A stretch of DNA of 64,000 nt, from IMG/VR virus record IMGVR_UViG_3300029309_000020; one strand, given 5' to 3'. The position numbers were made by a program, and so were the translations under genes. Numbering within the stretch: the stretch's first letter is position 1; every line of letters starts with the position of its first letter. Of the stretch, positions 4,122 through 56,306 are shown piece by piece. The notes under the pieces were generated by a model. The model saw nothing but the letters and a program-made list of their open reading frames with translations, was not told the DNA's origin and searched no databases. The stretch comes from an uncultured virus (IMG/VR IMGVR_UViG_3300029309_000020). Its lineage: Duplodnaviria; Heunggongvirae; Uroviricota; Caudoviricetes.

Positions 4122-4340
4122 ATGAAATTAATTAGAAAAATATCTATTGGCCAAGATTATAAAAATGAAGCTATGCACTATTCGGTAGGGCAAGAAGTTT
4201 ATGGTGGTCATACAATTTGCGACATAATAGAAAAAGAAGAAGGCTATTCAATTTACATTGAAAAAGACGGTGCTCAATTACCGTGGAAACATTTTAATAA
4301 AAACATGGCCGTTTCAATTGAATACAATTTAGACTATTAA
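4122..4340 (+). CDS. Hypothetical phage protein
   Basis: 72-aa ORF tightly packed in the operon (TAATG overlap with the next gene). Confidence 0.7.
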   Translation: MKLIRKISIGQDYKNEAMHYSVGQEVYGGHTICDIIEKEEGYSIYIEKDGAQLPWKHFNKNMAVSIEYNLDY

Positions 4341-4918
4341 TGAGATCCTTATATAATTATATTATATTCACAAAAGATCGTTACGATAATAAAAAAGACA
4401 TAGAAGGCAAAGAGCTTATATTAAATACAGAAATAACCGAAAGAGATTACCATTTTGTAAATAGAGTAGGTAGAGTTGTTAGTACGCCTATTAACTTAAA
4501 AACACCTATACAGTCAGGTGATGATGTAATTCTTCATCATAATGTTTTTAGAAGATGGTTTGATGTAAGAGGTAATGAAAGAAACTCTGGAAGTTTTATA
4601 AGCGATACAACCTTTACAGTTTATCACGATCAAATATTTGCATATAAAAAAAACAAAAAATGGCAAGCTTTACCAGAATTTTGCTTTGTTGCTCCTATAG
4701 AACAAGATTCAAAATGGAGCGTTTTAGCGGAAAAAGAATTAGTTGGTGAACTTGTGTATAGCAACGAGTATTTAAACTCGTTAGGAGTCGCCGAAGGAGA
4801 CGTGGTAGGCTTTACACCTGCATCTGAATACGAATTTAATATAGAGGGTAGAAAATTATATAGAATTAAATCAAACGATATAAATATTAAATATGGACAG
4901 ACGCAAAAAAATAATTGA
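4340..4918 (+). CDS. Tandem GroES-like (Cpn10-fold) protein
   Basis: Two GroES-like halves: GRVVSTP...IQSGDDVI and GELVY...VAEGDVVGF...EYEFNIEGRKLYRIKSNDI. Confidence 0.6.
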   Translation: MRSLYNYIIFTKDRYDNKKDIEGKELILNTEITERDYHFVNRVGRVVSTPINLKTPIQSGDDVILHHNVFRRWFDVRGNERNSGSFISDTTFTVYHDQIFAYKKNKKWQALPEFCFVAPIEQDSKWSVLAEKELVGELVYSNEYLNSLGVAEGDVVGFTPASEYEFNIEGRKLYRIKSNDINIKYGQTQKNN

Positions 4919-44070: not shown

Positions 44071-44802
44071 TCATTTTTCTAAAAATCTTTCAATTACTTC
44101 TGTAATTTCTTCTTCTTTTAATTTATCTAAAGCTCTTGCTTTTGTTTTCTTAATCCATATTGCAGACTTATTAAACCACTCAGCAATTCTATTAATACTT
44201 TGAGGTTTATCGTAAGCCTCGTCTATACCAAATGATTTTTTTAATACTTCTTTTTCAAAAGAGGTTAGCATTTTATCAAATATATCATTTAGTAACAAGT
44301 TTAGTTGTTCATTGTTATAATTAGGTACTTCATCGATAATATCAAAATAACTATTATTAAAAAACGACGAAAATGTTTTAGTTAAAAATATATCTATTTG
44401 ATAATTATTATCATATTTACCGTCATAAGCGTCTCCGTGAGGTCTTAAATTATAATATGCTTCAGGTATTCTAATTGTATCTCTGTCTTTAGCAATTGCT
44501 CTTTTAATACCGTTTTTAATATTAAGCTTTAAGTAGTTGATTATTATACCGTTACGCTCCTCTGGAACAGAGTTATTTATTAAATTCCAGTCTAAATTGT
44601 TCCATGCTTTATAAAAGCTATAATAGCCTTCTTGCAATAAATCATTTAAATCAAGTACACCAATTCTAGAATAACTTCTATTAAAAGAATTAGCAATTGA
44701 TCTAGGCCATTCAATAAATTGCGCTTTTACAGCGTCTTCATCTTTAAAATTTTTCATTTCTTGCATATGAAATTTATATGTTGGGTGACTGTACCATTTC
44801 AT
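44071..44802 (-). CDS. Phage sigma-70 family sigma factor
   Basis: Region 2 DLNDLLQEG...YL..NIK.GI.RAI...RDTIRIP; region 4 LT..EKEVL...FGI...SI..IAE.F......I......AL.KLK. Confidence 0.85.
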   Translation of the reverse strand: MKWYSHPTYKFHMQEMKNFKDEDAVKAQFIEWPRSIANSFNRSYSRIGVLDLNDLLQEGYYSFYKAWNNLDWNLINNSVPEERNGIIINYLKLNIKNGIKRAIAKDRDTIRIPEAYYNLRPHGDAYDGKYDNNYQIDIFLTKTFSSFFNNSYFDIIDEVPNYNNEQLNLLLNDIFDKMLTSFEKEVLKKSFGIDEAYDKPQSINRIAEWFNKSAIWIKKTKARALDKLKEEEITEVIERFLEK

Positions 44803-45770: not shown

Positions 45771-46611
45771 AGTTTCGGACTGTTTTAGCACGAGGAAAAC
45801 GATACGCACCAGATGGTGTACGATCGAAATACTCAAAGGTTAGTTTTTGGCCGATATAAGATTGTCTGTTATGCCATATGCCTTGGCGATCAAGTATTGT
45901 AAGTGAAGGCCAAGGAACTTCAACTACTCGATCGTTTGAATCAACGCCGATAAATTTGCCGAGGCCATTTTTGAATTTGCCACGACCTTCAATATAGTCA
46001 GTGATTGTGATCTCGGTGTCCGACCAGTCTTTAACTTTTTGTAGTGTGTAACTTCGTTTTTGTTCATAAGGTTTGTTTGTTCTAAGCATTGAGCCTTCGT
46101 AGCCGTTTGCTTTGTTTTGTTTGTGATATTTGTTTAGCTCGTTGTCATTCCAGATTACTTTAGTATCAACCTCGTGGGTGAACTTAAGTTTGTATTTGCT
46201 TTTAAGATTTGTAATAGCAAGAGTGCGATCAATAAATTTTATTTCGCTTTCAGGATTGCCAGAAAATAAATCGTAGCAATGAAATTGCAAATAACTTGCA
46301 GCTTCAAACTTATCTTGTTGTGTAGGCTTTTGCTTACGAACAAGAGAAATTATTTTGTTGAAATTGTTTTTGAACTTATGATTATAAAGCTCGCCGTCAA
46401 GAATAAGATAAGGATTATCAGCAAAGAGTGGTTTAAGTTCAGTGAGTATATGTTTACAATTGTAGAATTGCTTATTGTTTCTGCTAAAAGCTCCGTCTTT
46501 AGTAATGTAGCATCGTACGCCGTCAAGCTTTGGTTGAATAAAGTGGGTTTCATTTTTCCAGTTGATTGTTTTAGATACTGGGTGTGCCAGCATTGGTTTA
46601 AAGGTTGTCAT
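45763..46611 (-). CDS. ATP-dependent DNA ligase
   Basis: PMLA, QPKLDGVR, LDGELY, YEGSMLR, KRS..LQKVK, RFP; probable start MTTFKP. Confidence 0.93.
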   Translation of the reverse strand: MTTFKPMLAHPVSKTINWKNETHFIQPKLDGVRCYITKDGAFSRNNKQFYNCKHILTELKPLFADNPYLILDGELYNHKFKNNFNKIISLVRKQKPTQQDKFEAASYLQFHCYDLFSGNPESEIKFIDRTLAITNLKSKYKLKFTHEVDTKVIWNDNELNKYHKQNKANGYEGSMLRTNKPYEQKRSYTLQKVKDWSDTEITITDYIEGRGKFKNGLGKFIGVDSNDRVVEVPWPSLTILDRQGIWHNRQSYIGQKLTFEYFDRTPSGAYRFPRAKTVRNYE

Positions 46612-46906
46612 ATTCTTTTTTAAGTTTTTCATATATTTCTTTTAATTCTGATAATAATTCATATTTTTCTTCTGCTAATAATTGGTCTCTTGTTGCTTCA
46701 AGTTGTTTAAGTTGTGCTGCAATCATAGTTTTTTTGTCAAGCTTTTTAAAATTACCAAATGAATCTATAGATTTATGAAAAAATTCTTCAGGATTCATAG
46801 GTTCCATTGGTTGCATATTAAATTGATTATCTAAATAATCAATAATTTTTTCACTCACTAAATCCGCAAGTTTATATAATTGTTCTTCTGTCATAAGTAA
46901 TTCCAA
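46598..46906 (-). CDS. Hypothetical early protein (possible UVR-like C-terminal helix pair)
   Basis: C-terminal L.....D.LLAEEKYE....LK. Confidence 0.55.
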   Translation of the reverse strand: MELLMTEEQLYKLADLVSEKIIDYLDNQFNMQPMEPMNPEEFFHKSIDSFGNFKKLDKKTMIAAQLKQLEATRDQLLAEEKYELLSELKEIYEKLKKEYDNL

Positions 46907-47044
46907 AATCCGTCTTTCTTTTCTATATATGTAATGCCACCGCGATTGAAATGAATATCTTTATTCTTATCAAAGCTAGGTGGAATGTCACCAATTAAAT
47001 ATGGTTTCATTTCAATGGTTTCGTCTGTATTAATATTTTTTATT

Positions 47045-47371
47045 TTAATAGTCTTCATTTGCATCTTCGTTATCGTTAATCCATGTTTCAATTTCATACT
47101 CAGGCATATACTCTTCAATGTCATCAACATATACTTTAGAGCCAGCATCTAATTGCATAATGCGATCCATAATATCATCAAATGATGGCTGATAATAATA
47201 CACGTCGTTTTCCCAGTCAAGGCCATTTTCAAATGGAGTACTGTTCATAACATATACTTCATAGCCATCAGCTGTATTGTAGGTTGATACTTCAAGGTCG
47301 TACATATTATAGTTGTACGTTCCATCAATTTCAATGTTTAATTTTTCTTGTAATTTTTCTAATGCTGTCAT
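47045..47371 (-). CDS. Highly acidic early protein
   Basis: 108 aa, rich in D/E/Y, few basic residues. Confidence 0.65.
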   Translation of the reverse strand: MTALEKLQEKLNIEIDGTYNYNMYDLEVSTYNTADGYEVYVMNSTPFENGLDWENDVYYYQPSFDDIMDRIMQLDAGSKVYVDDIEEYMPEYEIETWINDNEDANEDY

Positions 47372-47377
47372 ATTTAT

Positions 47378-47644
47378 TTATTTAGTTAATTCTTTTGCGT
47401 AATAAGTTTCATAAGGTTCAACGGATCTAAATGGCATTCTATGTTTAGATTCATCGATAAGTTTAGCCATTCTAAGCCATACGCGTAGTTCATTTACATG
47501 GTGCATGCATTGGCCTCTACCTAATTCAGGAAACGCACCGTTGTGTCGTTTTCTAAATAAGTCACGCACCATAAGCCTATGGTTTGCAATATTGCTAATA
47601 AGCTTTGATTCAATTCTTGATGTTATGTATTCTTCTTTATTCAT
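47378..47644 (-). CDS. Hypothetical early protein
   Basis: 88 aa; starts about 10 nt after the tRNA-like element. Confidence 0.6.
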   Translation of the reverse strand: MNKEEYITSRIESKLISNIANHRLMVRDLFRKRHNGAFPELGRGQCMHHVNELRVWLRMAKLIDESKHRMPFRSVEPYETYYAKELTK

Positions 47645-47654
47645 AATTTTAGTT

Positions 47655-47746
47655 TAGTGGACGTGGGAGGAGTCGAACCTCCGTTTGCTGATAGTGTACT
47701 TTCGAACTTTGTCAGTAAACACTTCGTGCACTTGCCCGTCACGCCC
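47655..47746 (-). ncRNA. tRNA-like RNA with alanine identity (G3:U70, A73) and no anticodon loop; resembles the tmRNA tRNA-like domain
   Basis: GGGCGTG/CACGTCC acceptor stem, T-arm GGAGG-TTCGACT-CCTCC, 3' A-CTA, internal helix GTTTACTGA/TCAGCAAAC. Confidence 0.7.
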
Positions 47747-47828
47747 GGTGGCCGAAGGCGCAGCTCATTACCTGTCTTTTTAACTAGTATATATTGCTCG
47801 TCAGCACTCCTTCGGAGTCGTTAATATT

Positions 47829-48020
47829 TTATTTGCGTCGCCAAGCTCTGTGAACATTTGCACTTGTAGCTTGATCAACGATTTGTACTTCGAGTACTTG
47901 TTTGTTTGCAATGATAGGAACATAGCTATATTGCTGAGTATCAGAGCATTGCACACATTTATTGTAGCCAAGATCAATTCTTGCTTGTGGCATGCTGTTG
48001 CCGCATCTACAATATTTCAT
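47829..48020 (-). CDS. Small Zn-finger protein (DksA/TraR C4-like spacing)
   Basis: C.CG..MP.AR..LG...CV.CS. Confidence 0.65.
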   Translation of the reverse strand: MKYCRCGNSMPQARIDLGYNKCVQCSDTQQYSYVPIIANKQVLEVQIVDQATSANVHRAWRRK

Positions 48021-48438
48021 AATTGCTGGTTTAGTATATAGTTTAATACTTGCATTGGTGTACCGTTCATACTTTGCACAACACCGTGTTGATCTTGAAA
48101 TTCAATTCTATAACGATCTGGTCGGTGTATAGCAAATGGTGTATCGTATTTATTTCCTGCCATCTTTGTCTGTTTTTGTTGGTTCATATTTGTTATCAAT
48201 ATAATCAATTAGCTTTACAGTAAAATATTGTATAATATCATTTCCGTCAAAGCCATCATCAATTAATGGTTTAAATTTTTCAACAGCATATTCAACTTGC
48301 CATTCGCTAACAATATTATTCATTCTGTTAAATTTGTTTTGTAAATTAATGTAGTTTTGTAAGTTTTCGTTTTTATTCATAATAATTAATTTTGTCATTT
48401 ATTTGTAGTTCAAGGAACATTTTATTAATTTCTTCACT

Positions 48439-48473
48439 TATATTATCACTTTGCGTGTTAGTTTGTAACGTAT
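48439..48473 (-). promoter_or_regulatory. Class I early promoter-like motif, copy 1
   Basis: Minus strand ATACGTTACA-N14-GTGATAATATA. Confidence 0.8.
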
Positions 48474-48970
48474 TTTTCATATTTATTTTAATAATTTTTT
48501 AATTTTTTTATTACTGATTTTCTAATATCTTCTATTGCTTCACAAAAATAATCGTGTTCTAATTCTTCAACTATTGTACCATCAATCGCCCAAGAAATAC
48601 TATCATTAATATGTTCATTTATTACGTCTGCAACGTTTGTTGATATTTCATCTAATTCTTTTGTTACACTCATTTATTCATTTTTTAATAATTTATATAG
48701 TTCTTCGTTGCCAAGCATATGTCTAGATTGATTTGCAGCAAAGTTATCAAGATGCAATATTTGTTGATCTAGTGATAAACCGCCTTGCATAATTCTTTTG
48801 CTTATAAGATCCATTTTAGTTTGTGCATCATGCACTACATTTCTTAGTTCTTTAATTCTTTTTAGATTCATTTTAATCCGTATTTTAATTTTAATTTACT
48901 TTTTGTAATATTTAGTTCTTTACTTATTTCAGTTATACTTTTATTATCTATAAGATATAATCTCCAAACT

Positions 48971-49285
48971 TTATGCATTTGCTTCTTGTTCTTGTAATTT
49001 CATTTCATCATAAGTTAATGCTTCATCATGCTCATGTAACAAATCCCATAAAGCATTATAACCTGCTTCAAACCAGTTATTTGCACGACCAAATACATGA
49101 TGTTCTTCAAATATATCTGCATCTAATTTATTGCAATATTCTTTGCAATCATCTCTGTATATTACTTTATTTTCTAACCATTGATGCGTTTCTCTTACAA
49201 AATCATCGCTATTATCAATTGTACCTTCATGATATAAATACCACATATCGTCGTTAAACTCATATACTAATTCGTCGTTATACAT
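48971..49285 (-). CDS. Acidic protein, possible Ocr-like DNA mimic
   Basis: 104 aa, D/E-rich; I...DD....H....N.V..Y.D pattern. Confidence 0.5.
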   Translation of the reverse strand: MYNDELVYEFNDDMWYLYHEGTIDNSDDFVRETHQWLENKVIYRDDCKEYCNKLDADIFEEHHVFGRANNWFEAGYNALWDLLHEHDEALTYDEMKLQEQEANA

Positions 49286-49473
49286 ATCTTAAATAATTTT
49301 TAATTGTTTCAATACTTGCTTTGTTAAAAGCTCTAACATTTTCTCTATATTTTTTATTTGTACAAAATTTGTACATTGCTCTTGACTCTGTGCATTCACC
49401 AAACTTTGCCTCAAATAAAGCAATTTGTTTTAATTTATCGTCAATCATTTTTTTTGTTAATTCCATATTCAAT

Positions 49474-49508
49474 TATATTATCACTTGTTTATTTATTTTG
49501 TAACGTAT
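49474..49508 (-). promoter_or_regulatory. Class I early promoter-like motif, copy 2
   Basis: Minus strand ATACGTTACA-N14-GTGATAATATA. Confidence 0.8.
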
Positions 49509-49672
49509 TATAGCAAATTATTAATTATATAATTCGCAAGTACTTAAATTTTGTGGAGTTAATGTAATAGTTTCAAATTCTTTATTTGTTATTACTCCTT
49601 CCATTAAACCTAAATATTCTTTTGTAACGTCTCTACCTGTTATTTTATTTATTATAATCATATTATTTATTT

Positions 49673-49716
49673 TAGTTGGATAGATGAGAATCGAACTCAT
49701 TTTAACCATTTATCCA
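49673..49716 (-). ncRNA. tRNA minihelix-like element (acceptor stem plus T-arm only)
   Basis: TGGATAA-ATGGTTAAA-ATGAG-TTCGATT-CTCAT-CTATCCA-A-CTA. Confidence 0.55.
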
Positions 49717-50576
49717 TTTGTCTGTTCGTTTAAGGAAAAAACACACTTCAACACCTTATAATTTACTAAACTTTTCTATTAAGTTTAATTCAATTTTACA
49801 TTCTTCTTTATCACTTTCAGATAATTCACTTAATTTATCAACATAATACAATGTCTTTACATAATCTTTTAAATCAAAATATAATCTATCAATTTCTCTT
49901 TCAGTTAATTCTACTTTCATATTTTTATCTTCTAAATTCATTTTCATTTTTATTTGATATAATATATCTTTCAAAGATTTCATGTAATTTATAAAAATCT
50001 TCGGGAGGTAAATCTCCACTATCTAATCCAAAATCATCAACTATATCATCAAATTTAATATAATCATCTAAATCAAAGTCATCTACATTTTTAATTTTAT
50101 ATTCCATTTTTTATTATATTATCAATTATTTTATTTATTTCATCTTGGAGTTTATCTCCTTCATATTTATATTGTAATTCACTATATTCTTGTATTACTT
50201 CATTATATATTTCTTCTCTATCCATTTTATAATTCTTTATATACTATGTTTAATTATTAATCTTTCATTTTCACTTAAGTTATAATATCTTTTTAGTTTA
50301 TAACTTAATAACTCTTTATTCATATTTGTGTTTTTATAACTTTCTATTATTTTATTTAATTTCATATTTTTATATTTTTATTTTTTTATATTTTATTTAA
50401 ATATATTATACTTATAATCTTTATTATTTTCTAATCTTTTAAAATCTTTTATATTATTATTTTTAATATATTTTAACATTTCTTTTTCTTCTTCTTTATA
50501 ATTATTATAATCTAATTCAAAGAAATCATTATTAATTTTATAAGTTATATATTTCATATTTATTTTATTTACATTA

Positions 50577-50610
50577 TTATTATCACTTTATTATATATTT
50601 TGTAACGTAT
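50577..50610 (-). promoter_or_regulatory. Class I early promoter-like motif, copy 3
   Basis: Minus strand ATACGTTACA-N14-GTGATAATAA. Confidence 0.8.
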
Positions 50611-50855
50611 TTTTATATATTATTTAAAGTATTTTTTAAATTATTTTTATTTATAAAACTTAAACCTTTATAAGTAAAATCTATAATATTTTTATTTTTT
50701 ATAAATTCTTTTAAAGTAAACAAATCATTTATTTTAAAACCTATATAAGTTGTGTTTTTAATTTTTATTTTTTTAGTATAAATTAGTTTAGATTTGTAGT
50801 GATTTGTTTTTAAGTTTTTTAAATTTGACATTGTATTTTATTTTTTAATTACACT

Positions 50856-50890
50856 TATATTATCACATTGGTATAAGATCTGTAACGTAT
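50856..50890 (-). promoter_or_regulatory. Class I early promoter-like motif, copy 4 (head of the early arm)
   Basis: Minus strand ATACGTTACA-N14-GTGATAATATA. Confidence 0.8.
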
Positions 50891-50913
50891 ATTATATAAA
50901 ATTAATTCAAAAG

Positions 50914-50950
50914 TATACTTTTTATAAAATTTATGTAATATATATTATAG
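50914..50950 (+). promoter_or_regulatory. Class II promoter-like motif facing the late arm
   Basis: TATACTTTTTATAAAATTTATGTAATATATATTATAG; 32/37 identical to 44034-44070 (-). Confidence 0.65.
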
Positions 50951-51358
50951 ATATATAAATTATTTAGTAAAGTAATATAAACATTGTTAATATAATAATA
51001 AAATGTATTAAACTCTGTTAATATAATAATTTATAAAATACGTATATAGTCCGATTGTTATATTAGTGACAATATATAAAAAAGTTTGAATATATAATAA
51101 TAAAACTAGATATTTACTGACAATATATTAATACAATGTACACAATACTGAGTATATAACAGTATAATGTACATGTAATTGATAATTAAGTAGTTACAAA
51201 CTGCTAATAATACAGTAATGTTAACAAATGTATATAAATGATGCAATACATAGGGGCATAGGTTGCTAATATGGCTTTAAATTATAGCTTTTATTGCTAA
51301 ATATGTAATGCAACACAACAATTCTATTTATCTGACAAGTAATTTAAATTAAGCTTAT
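50951..51358. repeat. AT-rich non-coding divergence region with short direct repeats (candidate origin or genome end)
   Basis: TGTTAATATAATAAT at 50985 and 51016; TGACAATATAT at 51067 and 51118; no ORF in the track. Confidence 0.5.
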
Positions 51359-51595
51359 ATGCCTGATGCTTTTGTAAAAAACAACTTATCTGTAGTTATT
51401 TCTTTCATTGTGGCTGTGTTTACTGCAGGTGGTATATTCTCTGAGTTCACAGCTTTAAAAGATGAGATATCATTAGTGCATGAGAGACTTGATGAAAAGA
51501 TAACAGTTATATTGCGTCTTGAGGAACGTATCCTTGAGATAGAAAAGCATATAGAATATGAAAAAGGATTCTTAGATGCTAAAAATAATAAATAA
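51359..51595 (+). CDS. Small membrane-anchored coiled-coil protein
   Basis: N-terminal TM segment followed by a heptad pattern. Confidence 0.65.
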   Translation: MPDAFVKNNLSVVISFIVAVFTAGGIFSEFTALKDEISLVHERLDEKITVILRLEERILEIEKHIEYEKGFLDAKNNK

Positions 51596-54466: not shown

Positions 54467-56062
54467 ATGGCGGTACAGTTTGGTAGTCCAAATATTGTAA
54501 AAAATTTAAGCTTTGGCAAAGATGCTAAAGACAAACTAATTAAAGGCATAGACAAACTATCCGAGGCAGTAGCTACAACGCTGGGTGCTTCCGGTAGAAC
54601 TGTTGTGCTTGAGGATGACTTCGGTAATCCCCATGTAACTAAAGATGGGGTTACAGTTGCTAATTATATAAATCTAGATGATCCTATAGAAAATCTTGGC
54701 GTAAATATGCTAAGACAAGCATCTAGGCAAACAGCAACTAAAGCGGGTGACGGTACAACTACTTCTACTGTACTGGCCCAGAGTATTATTAAAAATTATT
54801 TCAAATTAGGAGGTGATGAGTATTCTTTCCGCGATGTAAGAAGCGGGATGAATAAACTTGTCAAACATGTCGTGAATTTCCTAGATAAGAAAGCTTTGCC
54901 TGTAGATAATAAAAGATTGAACCAAGTGTCAACTATATCGTGTAATAATGACGAGTCACTTGGCGATTTTATTGCCCAGGCTTTTGAAGCGGCTGGCGAC
55001 AACGGTGTCGTAACAATGGAATCATCTCCTACAAATGAAACGTATATTGAAACTGTAGACGGTACTCATATTAAGTCTATAAGCAAAAGTATACATTTTT
55101 ATACAAACAAAGAGAAGGAAATATCTGAATTAGAAAAGCCATTAATATTTTTATGTGCTTCTGAAATTAAAAATATCAGACGAATTCAAACGATATTAGA
55201 GTATGCGATTAAACAAAATAAATCGCTATTACTCATTGCTCCTTGCGATAACCAAATCATTTCTGCTTTAGCAATGAATCACGTAAAGGGCAATATACGT
55301 TGCAATATTATCGATCCGCCATCTTTTGGGTTAAAGAGAAAGGATATACTTGATGATATTGCCCTTCTTACGGGTGCTACTGTATTAGATGAAAATTTAG
55401 GAGATTCACTTGACAATATCACCCCTGAAGTGTTAGGAGTAGCCAAGAAGGCTATTATAGATACTGACGGTACTACTATAGCAATAGAAAATGTATCTGA
55501 GGAAGTTAAAGAACGAGTTAAATACTTAGAAGAGCAACTAGCGGATGAAAAGCATCATGTAATGCGCCCTCACTTAGAAAGCAGACTAGCTATACTAAAT
55601 GGTGGCGTATCAATCGTTTATGTAGGTGGTGATACAGAAGTAGAAGTATCAGAAAAAAAAGATAGGGTTGACGATGCAATCCACGCTGTAAGAGCCGCTA
55701 AAAAAGAAGGTATATTGCCAGGTGGTGGTACAGCTTTATTATTTGCAGCGGCAAGCGATTGGCAAGAAACACTAAATCAAGGTGAATACTCTGGCCTTCA
55801 AATATTAAAAGCAGCACTTGCTTCACCTTATTTAAGAATAATACAAAATGCAGGATTAGACCCTGAAAGTATTAAAATTTCTAAATGGGGTAGAGGCGTA
55901 GATGTAACCAAAGGTGTAAATGTAGATATGATTAAAAAAGGTATTATAGATCCTTTACTTGTTACAAAATCAGCACTTCTTAATGCTGTTTCAGTTGCTA
56001 CAACTATATTATCGACCGATTGTGTAATTTCAAATGTTAGAGATTATGAAGGCGATAGGTAA
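54467..56062 (+). CDS. groEL: Phage-encoded chaperonin GroEL
   Basis: TKDGVTVA, AGDGTTT, KDRVDDA..A..AA..EGI.PGGG, GIIDP..V; no GGM tail. Confidence 0.95.
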   Translation: MAVQFGSPNIVKNLSFGKDAKDKLIKGIDKLSEAVATTLGASGRTVVLEDDFGNPHVTKDGVTVANYINLDDPIENLGVNMLRQASRQTATKAGDGTTTSTVLAQSIIKNYFKLGGDEYSFRDVRSGMNKLVKHVVNFLDKKALPVDNKRLNQVSTISCNNDESLGDFIAQAFEAAGDNGVVTMESSPTNETYIETVDGTHIKSISKSIHFYTNKEKEISELEKPLIFLCASEIKNIRRIQTILEYAIKQNKSLLLIAPCDNQIISALAMNHVKGNIRCNIIDPPSFGLKRKDILDDIALLTGATVLDENLGDSLDNITPEVLGVAKKAIIDTDGTTIAIENVSEEVKERVKYLEEQLADEKHHVMRPHLESRLAILNGGVSIVYVGGDTEVEVSEKKDRVDDAIHAVRAAKKEGILPGGGTALLFAAASDWQETLNQGEYSGLQILKAALASPYLRIIQNAGLDPESIKISKWGRGVDVTKGVNVDMIKKGIIDPLLVTKSALLNAVSVATTILSTDCVISNVRDYEGDR

Positions 56063-56306
56063 GTATATAATTATAGAAGAATTAAAAGAAGATATAAAAA
56101 AGACCGATGGCGGTCTTATGCTCGCGGAAAGTCATAGAGAAGATATACGTTACAGAAAAGGTAAAGTTATATCTATAGGCACAAATGTAAATGGTATTGA
56201 AGAAGGCGATTGTATATGGTATGACAGGCACGCGGGTAATAACTTAGAAATAGATAATACTATTTTTAAAGTTATAGAAGAAAGAGATGTAATTATAGTT
56301 TTATAA
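56034..56306 (+). CDS. groES: Co-chaperonin GroES
   Basis: KTDGGLML...GKVISIG.....EEGD...YD.HAG...E.DVI.VL; probable start at MKAIG. Confidence 0.88.
   Translation: MLEIMKAIGKYIIIEELKEDIKKTDGGLMLAESHREDIRYRKGKVISIGTNVNGIEEGDCIWYDRHAGNNLEIDNTIFKVIEERDVIIVL

What the first reader, a model, noticed from the sequence alone, without database searches (positions are those of the whole stretch)
47655..47746. Anticodon-less tRNA-Ala mimic resembling a tmRNA with no mRNA domain
Seen (minus strand): GGGCGTG AC GGGCAAGTGCACGAAGT GTTTACTGA CAAAGTTCGAAAGTACACTA TCAGCAAAC GGAGG TTCGACT CCTCC CACGTCC A CTA. It has a 7-bp acceptor stem with G3:U70, discriminator A73 and a canonical T-arm. There is only a weak D-stem, and the anticodon arm is replaced by an irregular helix with a 20-nt insert. 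Known: G3:U70 with A73 is the AlaRS identity set shared by tRNA-Ala and tmRNA, and tmRNAs reduced to the tRNA-like domain occur in jakobid mitochondria. Inference: an alanylatable decoy that could bind SmpB/EF-Tu, alter ribosome rescue, distract tRNA-targeting defences, or act as an RNase P/Z processing signal.
Basis: partly seen in the sequence, partly recalled or inferred. Interest (0 to 1): 0.72.

Follow-up and report, generated by a model that had tools for sequence, protein, structure and literature searches.

The report
Phage tag-less mini-tmRNA, short-loop type
A marine phage carries a real, conserved 92-base RNA gene that keeps only the alanine-accepting head of the bacterial ribosome-rescue RNA (tmRNA); one such phage RNA was already known, but this one belongs to a large, mostly unannotated family that probably interferes with the host's rescue-and-tag system.

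Summary
The element is real. Window 47655-47746 (-) is a tmRNA tRNA-like domain (TLD) with no tag frame (Rfam tmRNA 30 bits, below cut-off), in a marine phage whose closest cultured kin infect Flavobacteriales. It belongs to a large family: 259 distinct sequences of 75-110 nt, window and DS6A included, with covarying acceptor, T and P2 stems. A search blind to the acceptor found G3:U70 in 86 of 87 and A73 in 87 of 87, so alanine identity is under selection. The kind is known: mycobacteriophage DS6A has a TLD-only RNA reported to inhibit tmRNA, and this scan found the class before on other DNA. This copy is a short-D-loop subtype that departs from the SmpB-contact consensus, with a 13-nt insertion relative to its 79-nt kin; the insertion recurs in three studies and can re-pair the P2 helix. 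Best reading: an alanylated competitor that takes host SmpB and stalled ribosomes and damps tagging (about 0.5). Expression, charging and SmpB binding are untested.

The parts
47655..47746 (-). TLD-only (tag-less) mini-tmRNA gene, 92 nt
47740..47746 (-). acceptor stem 5' strand (nt 1-7; G3)
47731..47739 (-). short D loop (nt 8-16), no conserved stem, lacks the UUCGA motif of tmRNA and DS6A
47686..47730 (-). P2-like arm in place of anticodon arm and mRNA-like domain (helix, internal loop, tetraloop hairpin); hypervariable in the family
47716..47728 (-). 13-nt insertion relative to the 79-nt kin (register uncertain by a few bases); complementary to the 3' strand of the arm
47683..47685 (-). AAC connector (tmRNA: GAC)
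47666..47682 (-). T arm, 5 bp with canonical 7-nt loop
47655..47665 (-). acceptor 3' strand (U70), discriminator A73, then CUA: CCA is not encoded
47752..47815 (-). separate conserved non-coding hairpin just upstream; not part of the mini-tmRNA (absent or placed elsewhere in kin)
47829..48020 (-). upstream 63-aa Cys-rich ORF, no Pfam/PHROG match; same neighbour in 5 of 6 closest loci by eye
47378..47644 (-). downstream 88-aa ORF, no Pfam/PHROG match, starts 11 nt after the RNA
48439..48477 (-). nearest of five copies of an intergenic 39-nt promoter-like repeat pointing towards the RNA (inferred promoter)

Best explanation
A phage gene for a tag-less mini-tmRNA. It is most likely cut out of a leftward multi-gene transcript by the host's tRNA-processing enzymes, given CCA, charged with alanine by host AlaRS (G3:U70, A73) and bound by host SmpB and EF-Tu. 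As a chargeable competitor it ties up SmpB and enters ribosomes stalled on non-stop mRNA, where it can add alanine but cannot add the proteolysis tag or supply a stop codon, so host trans-translation tagging is damped during infection. Shown here: anatomy, family, covariation, selection on alanine identity, absence of phage SmpB/ArfB/Pth in the genomes checked. Inferred: expression, processing, charging, SmpB binding, and the benefit to the phage.
For: Rfam tmRNA is the best match, ends to ends; DS6A's RNA has the same layout (83 nt, 43.2 bits) and is reported to inhibit endogenous tmRNA in E. coli, perhaps by titrating SmpB (passages of PMC11915505 and PMC4131195). Acceptor-blind search: 86 of 87 G3:U70, 87 of 87 A73, pairs 4-6 covary. 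92.3% of cells paired vs 66.9% shuffled, 12 of 16 pairs with two-sided change. A model built without the window, DS6A, L003 and L007 scores DS6A 59.9, L001-L007 53.1-63.8 and the window 48.6 bits. TLD plus SmpB alone makes polyalanine in vitro (passages of PMC3929946 and PMC2481249). No SmpB, Pth or RF-1/ArfB among 73 window ORFs or in 5 of 5 close phage contigs, so partners must be host factors. A terminase relative, Cellulophaga phage phi38:1, has a full tmRNA, so this phage lineage handles tmRNA genes.
Against: The SmpB contacts of E. coli tmRNA include U17, C18 and G19 (passages of PMC8363625); the window's D loop is two bases shorter than the Flavobacteriaceae host-type loop and reads AAG there, and the connector is AAC, not GAC. 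In the window copy the connector is predicted mostly paired (unpaired probability 0.31 vs family median 0.87). The window's model score (48.6) is only about 9 bits above an ordinary tRNA-Tyr (39.2). PMC4131195 says inhibition did not need alanine charging, so selection on G3:U70 is not required by a pure inhibitor and fits tag-free rescue equally. No transcript ends or levels could be seen (contigs only). Damping rescue could also hurt phage translation.
Confidence: 0.5

Rival explanations
1. Tag-free rescue helper: Ala-TLD with SmpB takes the nascent chain from stalled ribosomes and adds one or more alanines, after which drop-off or host ArfB/Pth frees the ribosome. It would stand in for a host tmRNA cut during infection, as proposed for tag-less mitochondrial tmRNA, and spare phage proteins from tag-directed proteolysis.
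For: Selection on G3:U70/A73 and the T arm; template-free polyalanine synthesis by TLD+SmpB; mitochondrial tag-less tmRNA thought to help with incomplete mRNAs; 37 of 257 family sequences have a tRNA gene within 300 nt, 36 on the same strand, and cultured Streptomyces phages keep it inside tRNA clusters.
Against: No stop codon and no phage release factor or Pth found; the only reported test of this RNA type showed inhibition.
Confidence: 0.25
2. Counter-defence decoy: a tmRNA/tRNA look-alike with no anticodon loop and no mRNA-like domain that soaks up defence proteins which sense or cut tmRNA or tRNA.
For: The arm that replaces the anticodon is hypervariable in sequence and length (75-110 nt), as expected under an arms race; defence systems with SmpB-like folds are predicted (passages of PMC10542128) and t(m)RNA fragments serve in an anti-CRISPR complex (passages of PMC11662646).
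Against: No defence-related partner was identified near it; variability is equally explained by lack of constraint; alanine identity need not be kept for a nuclease decoy.
Confidence: 0.12
3. SmpB-independent RNA: the short-D-loop subtype has drifted from tmRNA and works only through AlaRS/EF-Tu/RNase P, or serves as a processing punctuation mark in the multi-gene transcript.
For: D loop and connector depart from the SmpB-contact consensus; no terminator-like site on the minus strand in 46500-51500, ORFs close on both sides.
Against: Intermediate forms join this subtype to the GGUUUCGAC type (for example L018, L022, L083); D-loop type and connector change together (long loop 43 of 64 GAC, short loop 60 of 79 AAC), which suggests a kept elbow; RNase P does not need G3:U70 (general knowledge).
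Confidence: 0.08
4. The family is real but this 92-nt copy is a damaged allele, inactivated by the 13-nt insertion.
For: Lowest-energy fold buries the connector; lowest model score among its close kin.
Against: Same insertion in contigs of three studies; in one diverged contig (17 differences in 346 nt, no gaps) the 11 listed differences all fall outside the 92 nt, two of them 1 and 3 bases from its ends (6 differences not listed by place). A fold that keeps the family register and pairs the insertion costs 2.0 kcal/mol.
Confidence: 0.05

Closest known systems
TLD-only ('standard, no CDS') tmRNA of mycobacteriophage DS6A (JN698994.1 28478-28560; PMC4131195, PMC11915505, both citing Mao et al. 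2009, which I could not read)
   Same: Phage-borne, one piece, 7-bp acceptor with G3:U70/A73, stemless D loop, P2 helix closed by a short hairpin, T arm, CCA not encoded, no tag frame.
   Different: Shorter D loop without the UCGAC motif, AAC connector, unrelated P2 sequence, 13-nt insertion; different host phylum (inferred Flavobacteriales).
Full one-piece tmRNA (Rfam RF00023), e.g. Flavobacteriaceae host type (L505) and Cellulophaga phage phi38:1 (L497)
   Same: TLD layout, alanine identity, D loop opening with AC, ACUA 3' end.
   Different: No pseudoknots, no mRNA-like domain, no tag or stop; 92 nt vs 360-398 nt.
Tag-less organellar tmRNAs (jakobid and oomycete mitochondria, RF02544; ~65-bp Mallomonadaceae plastid forms; PMC11915505)
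   Same: TLD without coding region.
   Different: Those are usually permuted and work with an imported SmpB of the same cell; no RF02544 match was listed here.
tRNA-Ala
   Same: G3:U70, A73, T arm.
   Different: No U8 (A here; U in 19 of 259 family sequences), no D-stem, no 7-nt anticodon loop; ARAGORN negative.

Membership tests
TLD-only tmRNA (DS6A type) | 7-bp acceptor with G3:U70 and A73 | tested here: met
TLD-only tmRNA (DS6A type) | canonical T arm preceded by a (G/A)AC connector | tested here: met
   connector is AAC
TLD-only tmRNA (DS6A type) | stemless D loop followed by a P2 helix instead of an anticodon arm | tested here: met
   clear in the 79-nt kin, P2 covaries in the family; in the window copy this fold lies 2.0 kcal/mol above the minimum
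TLD-only tmRNA (DS6A type) | no mRNA-like domain or tag frame | tested here: met
   92 nt end to end; ARAGORN finds no tmRNA
TLD-only tmRNA (DS6A type) | SmpB-contact bases of the D loop (U17, C18, G19 in E. coli) | tested here: inconclusive
   loop ends in AAG, two bases shorter than host type; a G is kept before P2 and the connector A is kept; mapping is my inference
TLD-only tmRNA (DS6A type) | expressed, CCA-matured, alanylated, binds SmpB, inhibits tagging | not testable with these tools
   RNA-library contigs cover the locus but show no ends or level
full tmRNA (RF00023) | mRNA-like domain with resume codon, tag and stop | tested here: not met
permuted (two-piece) tmRNA | 3' TLD half upstream of the 5' half | tested here: not met
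   halves are in standard order; RF04321 only 19 bits, E 0.12
tRNA-Ala | U8, D-stem, anticodon stem with 7-nt loop and NGC anticodon | tested here: not met
   the 7 family-like sequences that ARAGORN did call got Gln, Ile, undefined, Val, Cys, Pro, Cys anticodons
attP remnant of tmRNA-targeting integration | 3' portion only, next to an integrase | tested here: not met
   both acceptor strands present and covarying; no integrase match among 73 ORFs

The most novel reading that the evidence does not exclude
Phages of many hosts use tag-less mini-tmRNAs as an active RNA weapon: charged with alanine and loaded on host SmpB, they reroute stalled ribosomes from tag-and-destroy to untagged alanine tailing, and the short-D-loop subtype of Flavobacteriales phages has rebuilt its elbow to fit (or out-compete for) host SmpB while escaping tmRNA-directed defences. 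That would be a widespread RNA-only counter-defence and a natural model for tag-less organellar tmRNA.
Probability: 0.2. Interest if true: 0.8.

Novelty: new variant of a known kind. Interest (0 to 1): 0.5.

Why it matters
Strict retention of alanine identity makes an open question testable: whether a tag-less tmRNA only blocks trans-translation or rescues ribosomes without tagging. Unannotated copies in cultured Streptomyces phages give laboratory systems. The class itself is not new.

Tried and rejected
Ordinary or decayed tRNA: rejected. Assembly artefact for the 13-nt insertion: rejected (X6 contig of 435 nt and X9 contig of 668 nt with 0 differences, X16 contig with no gaps; X15 shows the form 13 nt shorter). 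attP remnant and permuted tmRNA: rejected (membership rows). blastn of the locus against cultured phages gave only T-arm-sized matches. Model search of 5 terminase relatives found no mini form: 3 weak hits of 24.5-28.9 bits were two tRNAs and the end of a full tmRNA. Expression: two RNA-library runs hold contigs over the locus, but these include flanking ORFs, come from related strains and cannot show ends, strand or level; four same-sample RNA runs held next to none of the words: no verdict. No whole genome is held for the window. Promoter scan was not specific (60 sites vs 42.6 in shuffles). The supplement of PMC11915505 held as text gave no hits for phage or no-CDS terms, so the database's own list of 79 phage and 9 tag-less entries was not seen and may include family members. 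Mao et al. 2009 is not held. PMC5389517 passages were not relevant. Look-up of earlier scan notes by sequence found nothing. Of 33 genome-contig hits many looked by eye like 3' parts of two-piece or full tmRNAs and were not counted.

Full report
Observation. It has a 7-bp acceptor with G3:U70, discriminator A73, a 5-bp T arm with a canonical loop, and ends in ACUA. ARAGORN finds no tRNA or tmRNA in the window and Rfam has no match at gathering level, but at E-value level the best match is tmRNA RF00023, 30 bits, E 3.2e-10, covering both ends of the model with the middle missing. Folding energy alone is unremarkable (z -1.53); the acceptor/T-arm/G3:U70/A73 combination appeared in 1 of 200 shuffles of the window.

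Setting. The window is a phage: terminase, portal, primase-helicase, ligase, ribonucleotide reductase and thymidylate synthase matches among 73 ORFs, with no SmpB, release factor, Pth or integrase match. All 87 terminase matches among GenBank phages are Flavobacterium, Cellulophaga, Tenacibaculum or Maribacter phages or one uncultured record, and the DNA occurs in marine metagenomes, so a Flavobacteriales host is inferred. The RNA lies between two small minus-strand ORFs, about 700 nt downstream of the nearest of five promoter-like repeats, with no minus-strand terminator-like site in 46500-51500; release from a longer transcript is inferred.

Family. An exact T-arm pattern gave 6 loci; their elements are 79-83 nt and fold, in 6 of 10 close relatives exactly so, as acceptor, 9-nt D loop, 6-bp P2, internal loop, hairpin, unpaired AAC, T arm. 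From these loci, the window and DS6A a script kept 269 distinct candidates, dropped 10 that ARAGORN called tRNA (3 ordinary ones, 7 family-like with anticodons unrelated to alanine), and left 259 of 75-110 nt, 167 clusters at 80%. I aligned 145 of the 167, leaving out the 16 longest, L095, L065, L003, L007, DS6A and the window. On it 92.3% of cells pair against 66.9% in shuffles, 12 of 16 pairs show two-sided change, and slid registers give 45-57%; P2 is the weakest helix (72.6%, partly misalignment). Shuffles ignore kinship, but the sequences are under 80% alike. Most patterns fixed G3, U70 and A73, so I tested them with patterns blind to the acceptor: one search gave 87 distinct sequences, 86 with a full acceptor and G3:U70 and all 87 with A73, while pairs 4-6 varied with compensation; one search gave 54, of which 44 passed the stem filter and 36 of those had G3:U70, the other 8 looking like ordinary tRNAs by eye. 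CCA is encoded in 51 of 259, C74 in 247.

Relation to what is known. PMC11915505 (passages read) counts 9 standard no-CDS tmRNAs among 97,179 and states that a form from phage DS6A inhibits endogenous tmRNA in E. coli; PMC4131195 (passages) lists DS6A as 'TLD only' and says a similar molecule inhibits whether or not chargeable, perhaps by titrating SmpB. The primary paper was not held. I located the DS6A RNA (83 nt, 43.2 bits); the model built here scores it 59.9, the close kin 53.1-63.8, the window 48.6, a tmRNA 3' part 41.2 and the best tRNA 39.2. Searches for a published account of a wide phage family found none (listings only, library limited to open papers), and the database's own entry list was not visible. 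Earlier notes of this scan describe the same class on other DNA; my reading was written down before that look-up.

What is particular here. First, the subtype. Host-type and DS6A-type D loops end in UUGAC/UCGAC and pair with a GAC or CAC connector; this copy and its kin end the loop in AG and use AAC. Among 167 sequences from the two scans that did not fix that base, long loops had GAC in 43 of 64 and short loops AAC in 60 of 79 (kinship not corrected). SmpB contacts U17, C18, G19 and A334 in E. coli tmRNA (PMC8363625, passages), so SmpB binding by this subtype is open. Second, the 13-nt insertion. It is real: present with no differences in DNA contigs of two studies and without gaps in a diverged contig of a third, whose 11 listed differences all lie outside the element (6 more not listed by place); a fourth run shows the shorter form. 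The lowest-energy fold (-27.2) buries the connector, and simple bulged versions of the family fold cost about 9 kcal/mol, but a fold in which the insertion pairs with the 3' strand of the arm keeps the family register at -25.2. So it reads as a rebuilt P2 arm rather than damage; 46 of 259 family sequences also have a connector predicted mostly paired.

Mechanism. Five close phage contigs each hold only the short form and none has SmpB, Pth or RF-1/ArfB (2 of the 5 are at least 90% complete), so it must use host factors. TLD with SmpB can enter ribosomes and pass alanine without a template (PMC3929946 and PMC2481249, passages). I put most weight on a chargeable competitor that damps host tagging (0.5), then tag-free rescue (0.25), defence decoy (0.12; leads from PMC10542128 and PMC11662646 passages), SmpB-independent or processing role (0.08) and damaged allele (0.05). 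Selection on alanine identity argues for entry into the translation cycle rather than a passive sponge, but it does not separate the first two. RNA-library contigs cover the locus in 2 of 2 RNA runs laid, which does not show transcription.

Verdict. A real phage mini-tmRNA: a variant (short D loop, AAC connector, rebuilt P2) of the kind known from DS6A, not a full tmRNA and not a tRNA. Interest 0.5: the kind is in print and function is untested, but the family is far larger than published lists that I could see, keeps alanine identity strictly, and has unannotated members in cultured Streptomyces phages that make the question testable.

Noticed in passing
window 47752-47815 (-): Conserved 64-nt non-coding hairpin directly upstream of the mini-tmRNA; found in 5 viral contigs by exact pattern, one compensatory change among 21 predicted pairs, placed downstream of the mini-tmRNA in L006, absent in L002/L003; no Rfam match. 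Possibly a second small RNA.
   Followed up: partly
window 48439-48477, 49474-49512, 50576-50614, 50856-50894, 50941-50979: Five copies of a 39-nt intergenic repeat in the small-gene region, likely a phage promoter on the minus strand; the phage also encodes a sigma-factor-like protein at 44071-44802.
   Followed up: no
L497:1503-1862 (-) = KC821614.1, Cellulophaga phage phi38:1: Full-length tmRNA with an unusual tag (ARAGORN), not annotated in the record, which shows a hypothetical ORF on the other strand there.
   Followed up: partly
L489:1996-2076, L490:1491-1572, L491:1492-1572: Unannotated mini-tmRNAs (76.7-79.2 bits) inside tRNA clusters of cultured Streptomyces phages LuckySocke, Shaeky and BRock; GiJojo, pSt2308 and Alone3 have similar blast hits (not checked with the model).
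   Followed up: partly
L467 / G006:C50:32020-32100: A Sinomicrobium MAG holds an 81-nt mini form (54.5 bits) besides its full tmRNA; about a dozen of 33 genome hits look like mini forms by eye; prophage or chromosomal status not checked.
   Followed up: partly
L001 and L005, flanks of the mini-tmRNA: Further intergenic blocks up- and downstream that look like other small RNAs; L003 has tRNA-Met directly abutting the 3' end. The site seems to be a hot spot for non-coding cassettes.
   Followed up: no
L292: One family copy appears to have lost bases in the 3' acceptor strand: a likely degenerate allele.
   Followed up: no
window 54467-56306 (+): Phage-encoded GroEL and GroES, plus a second GroES-like match at 4340-4918.
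   Followed up: no
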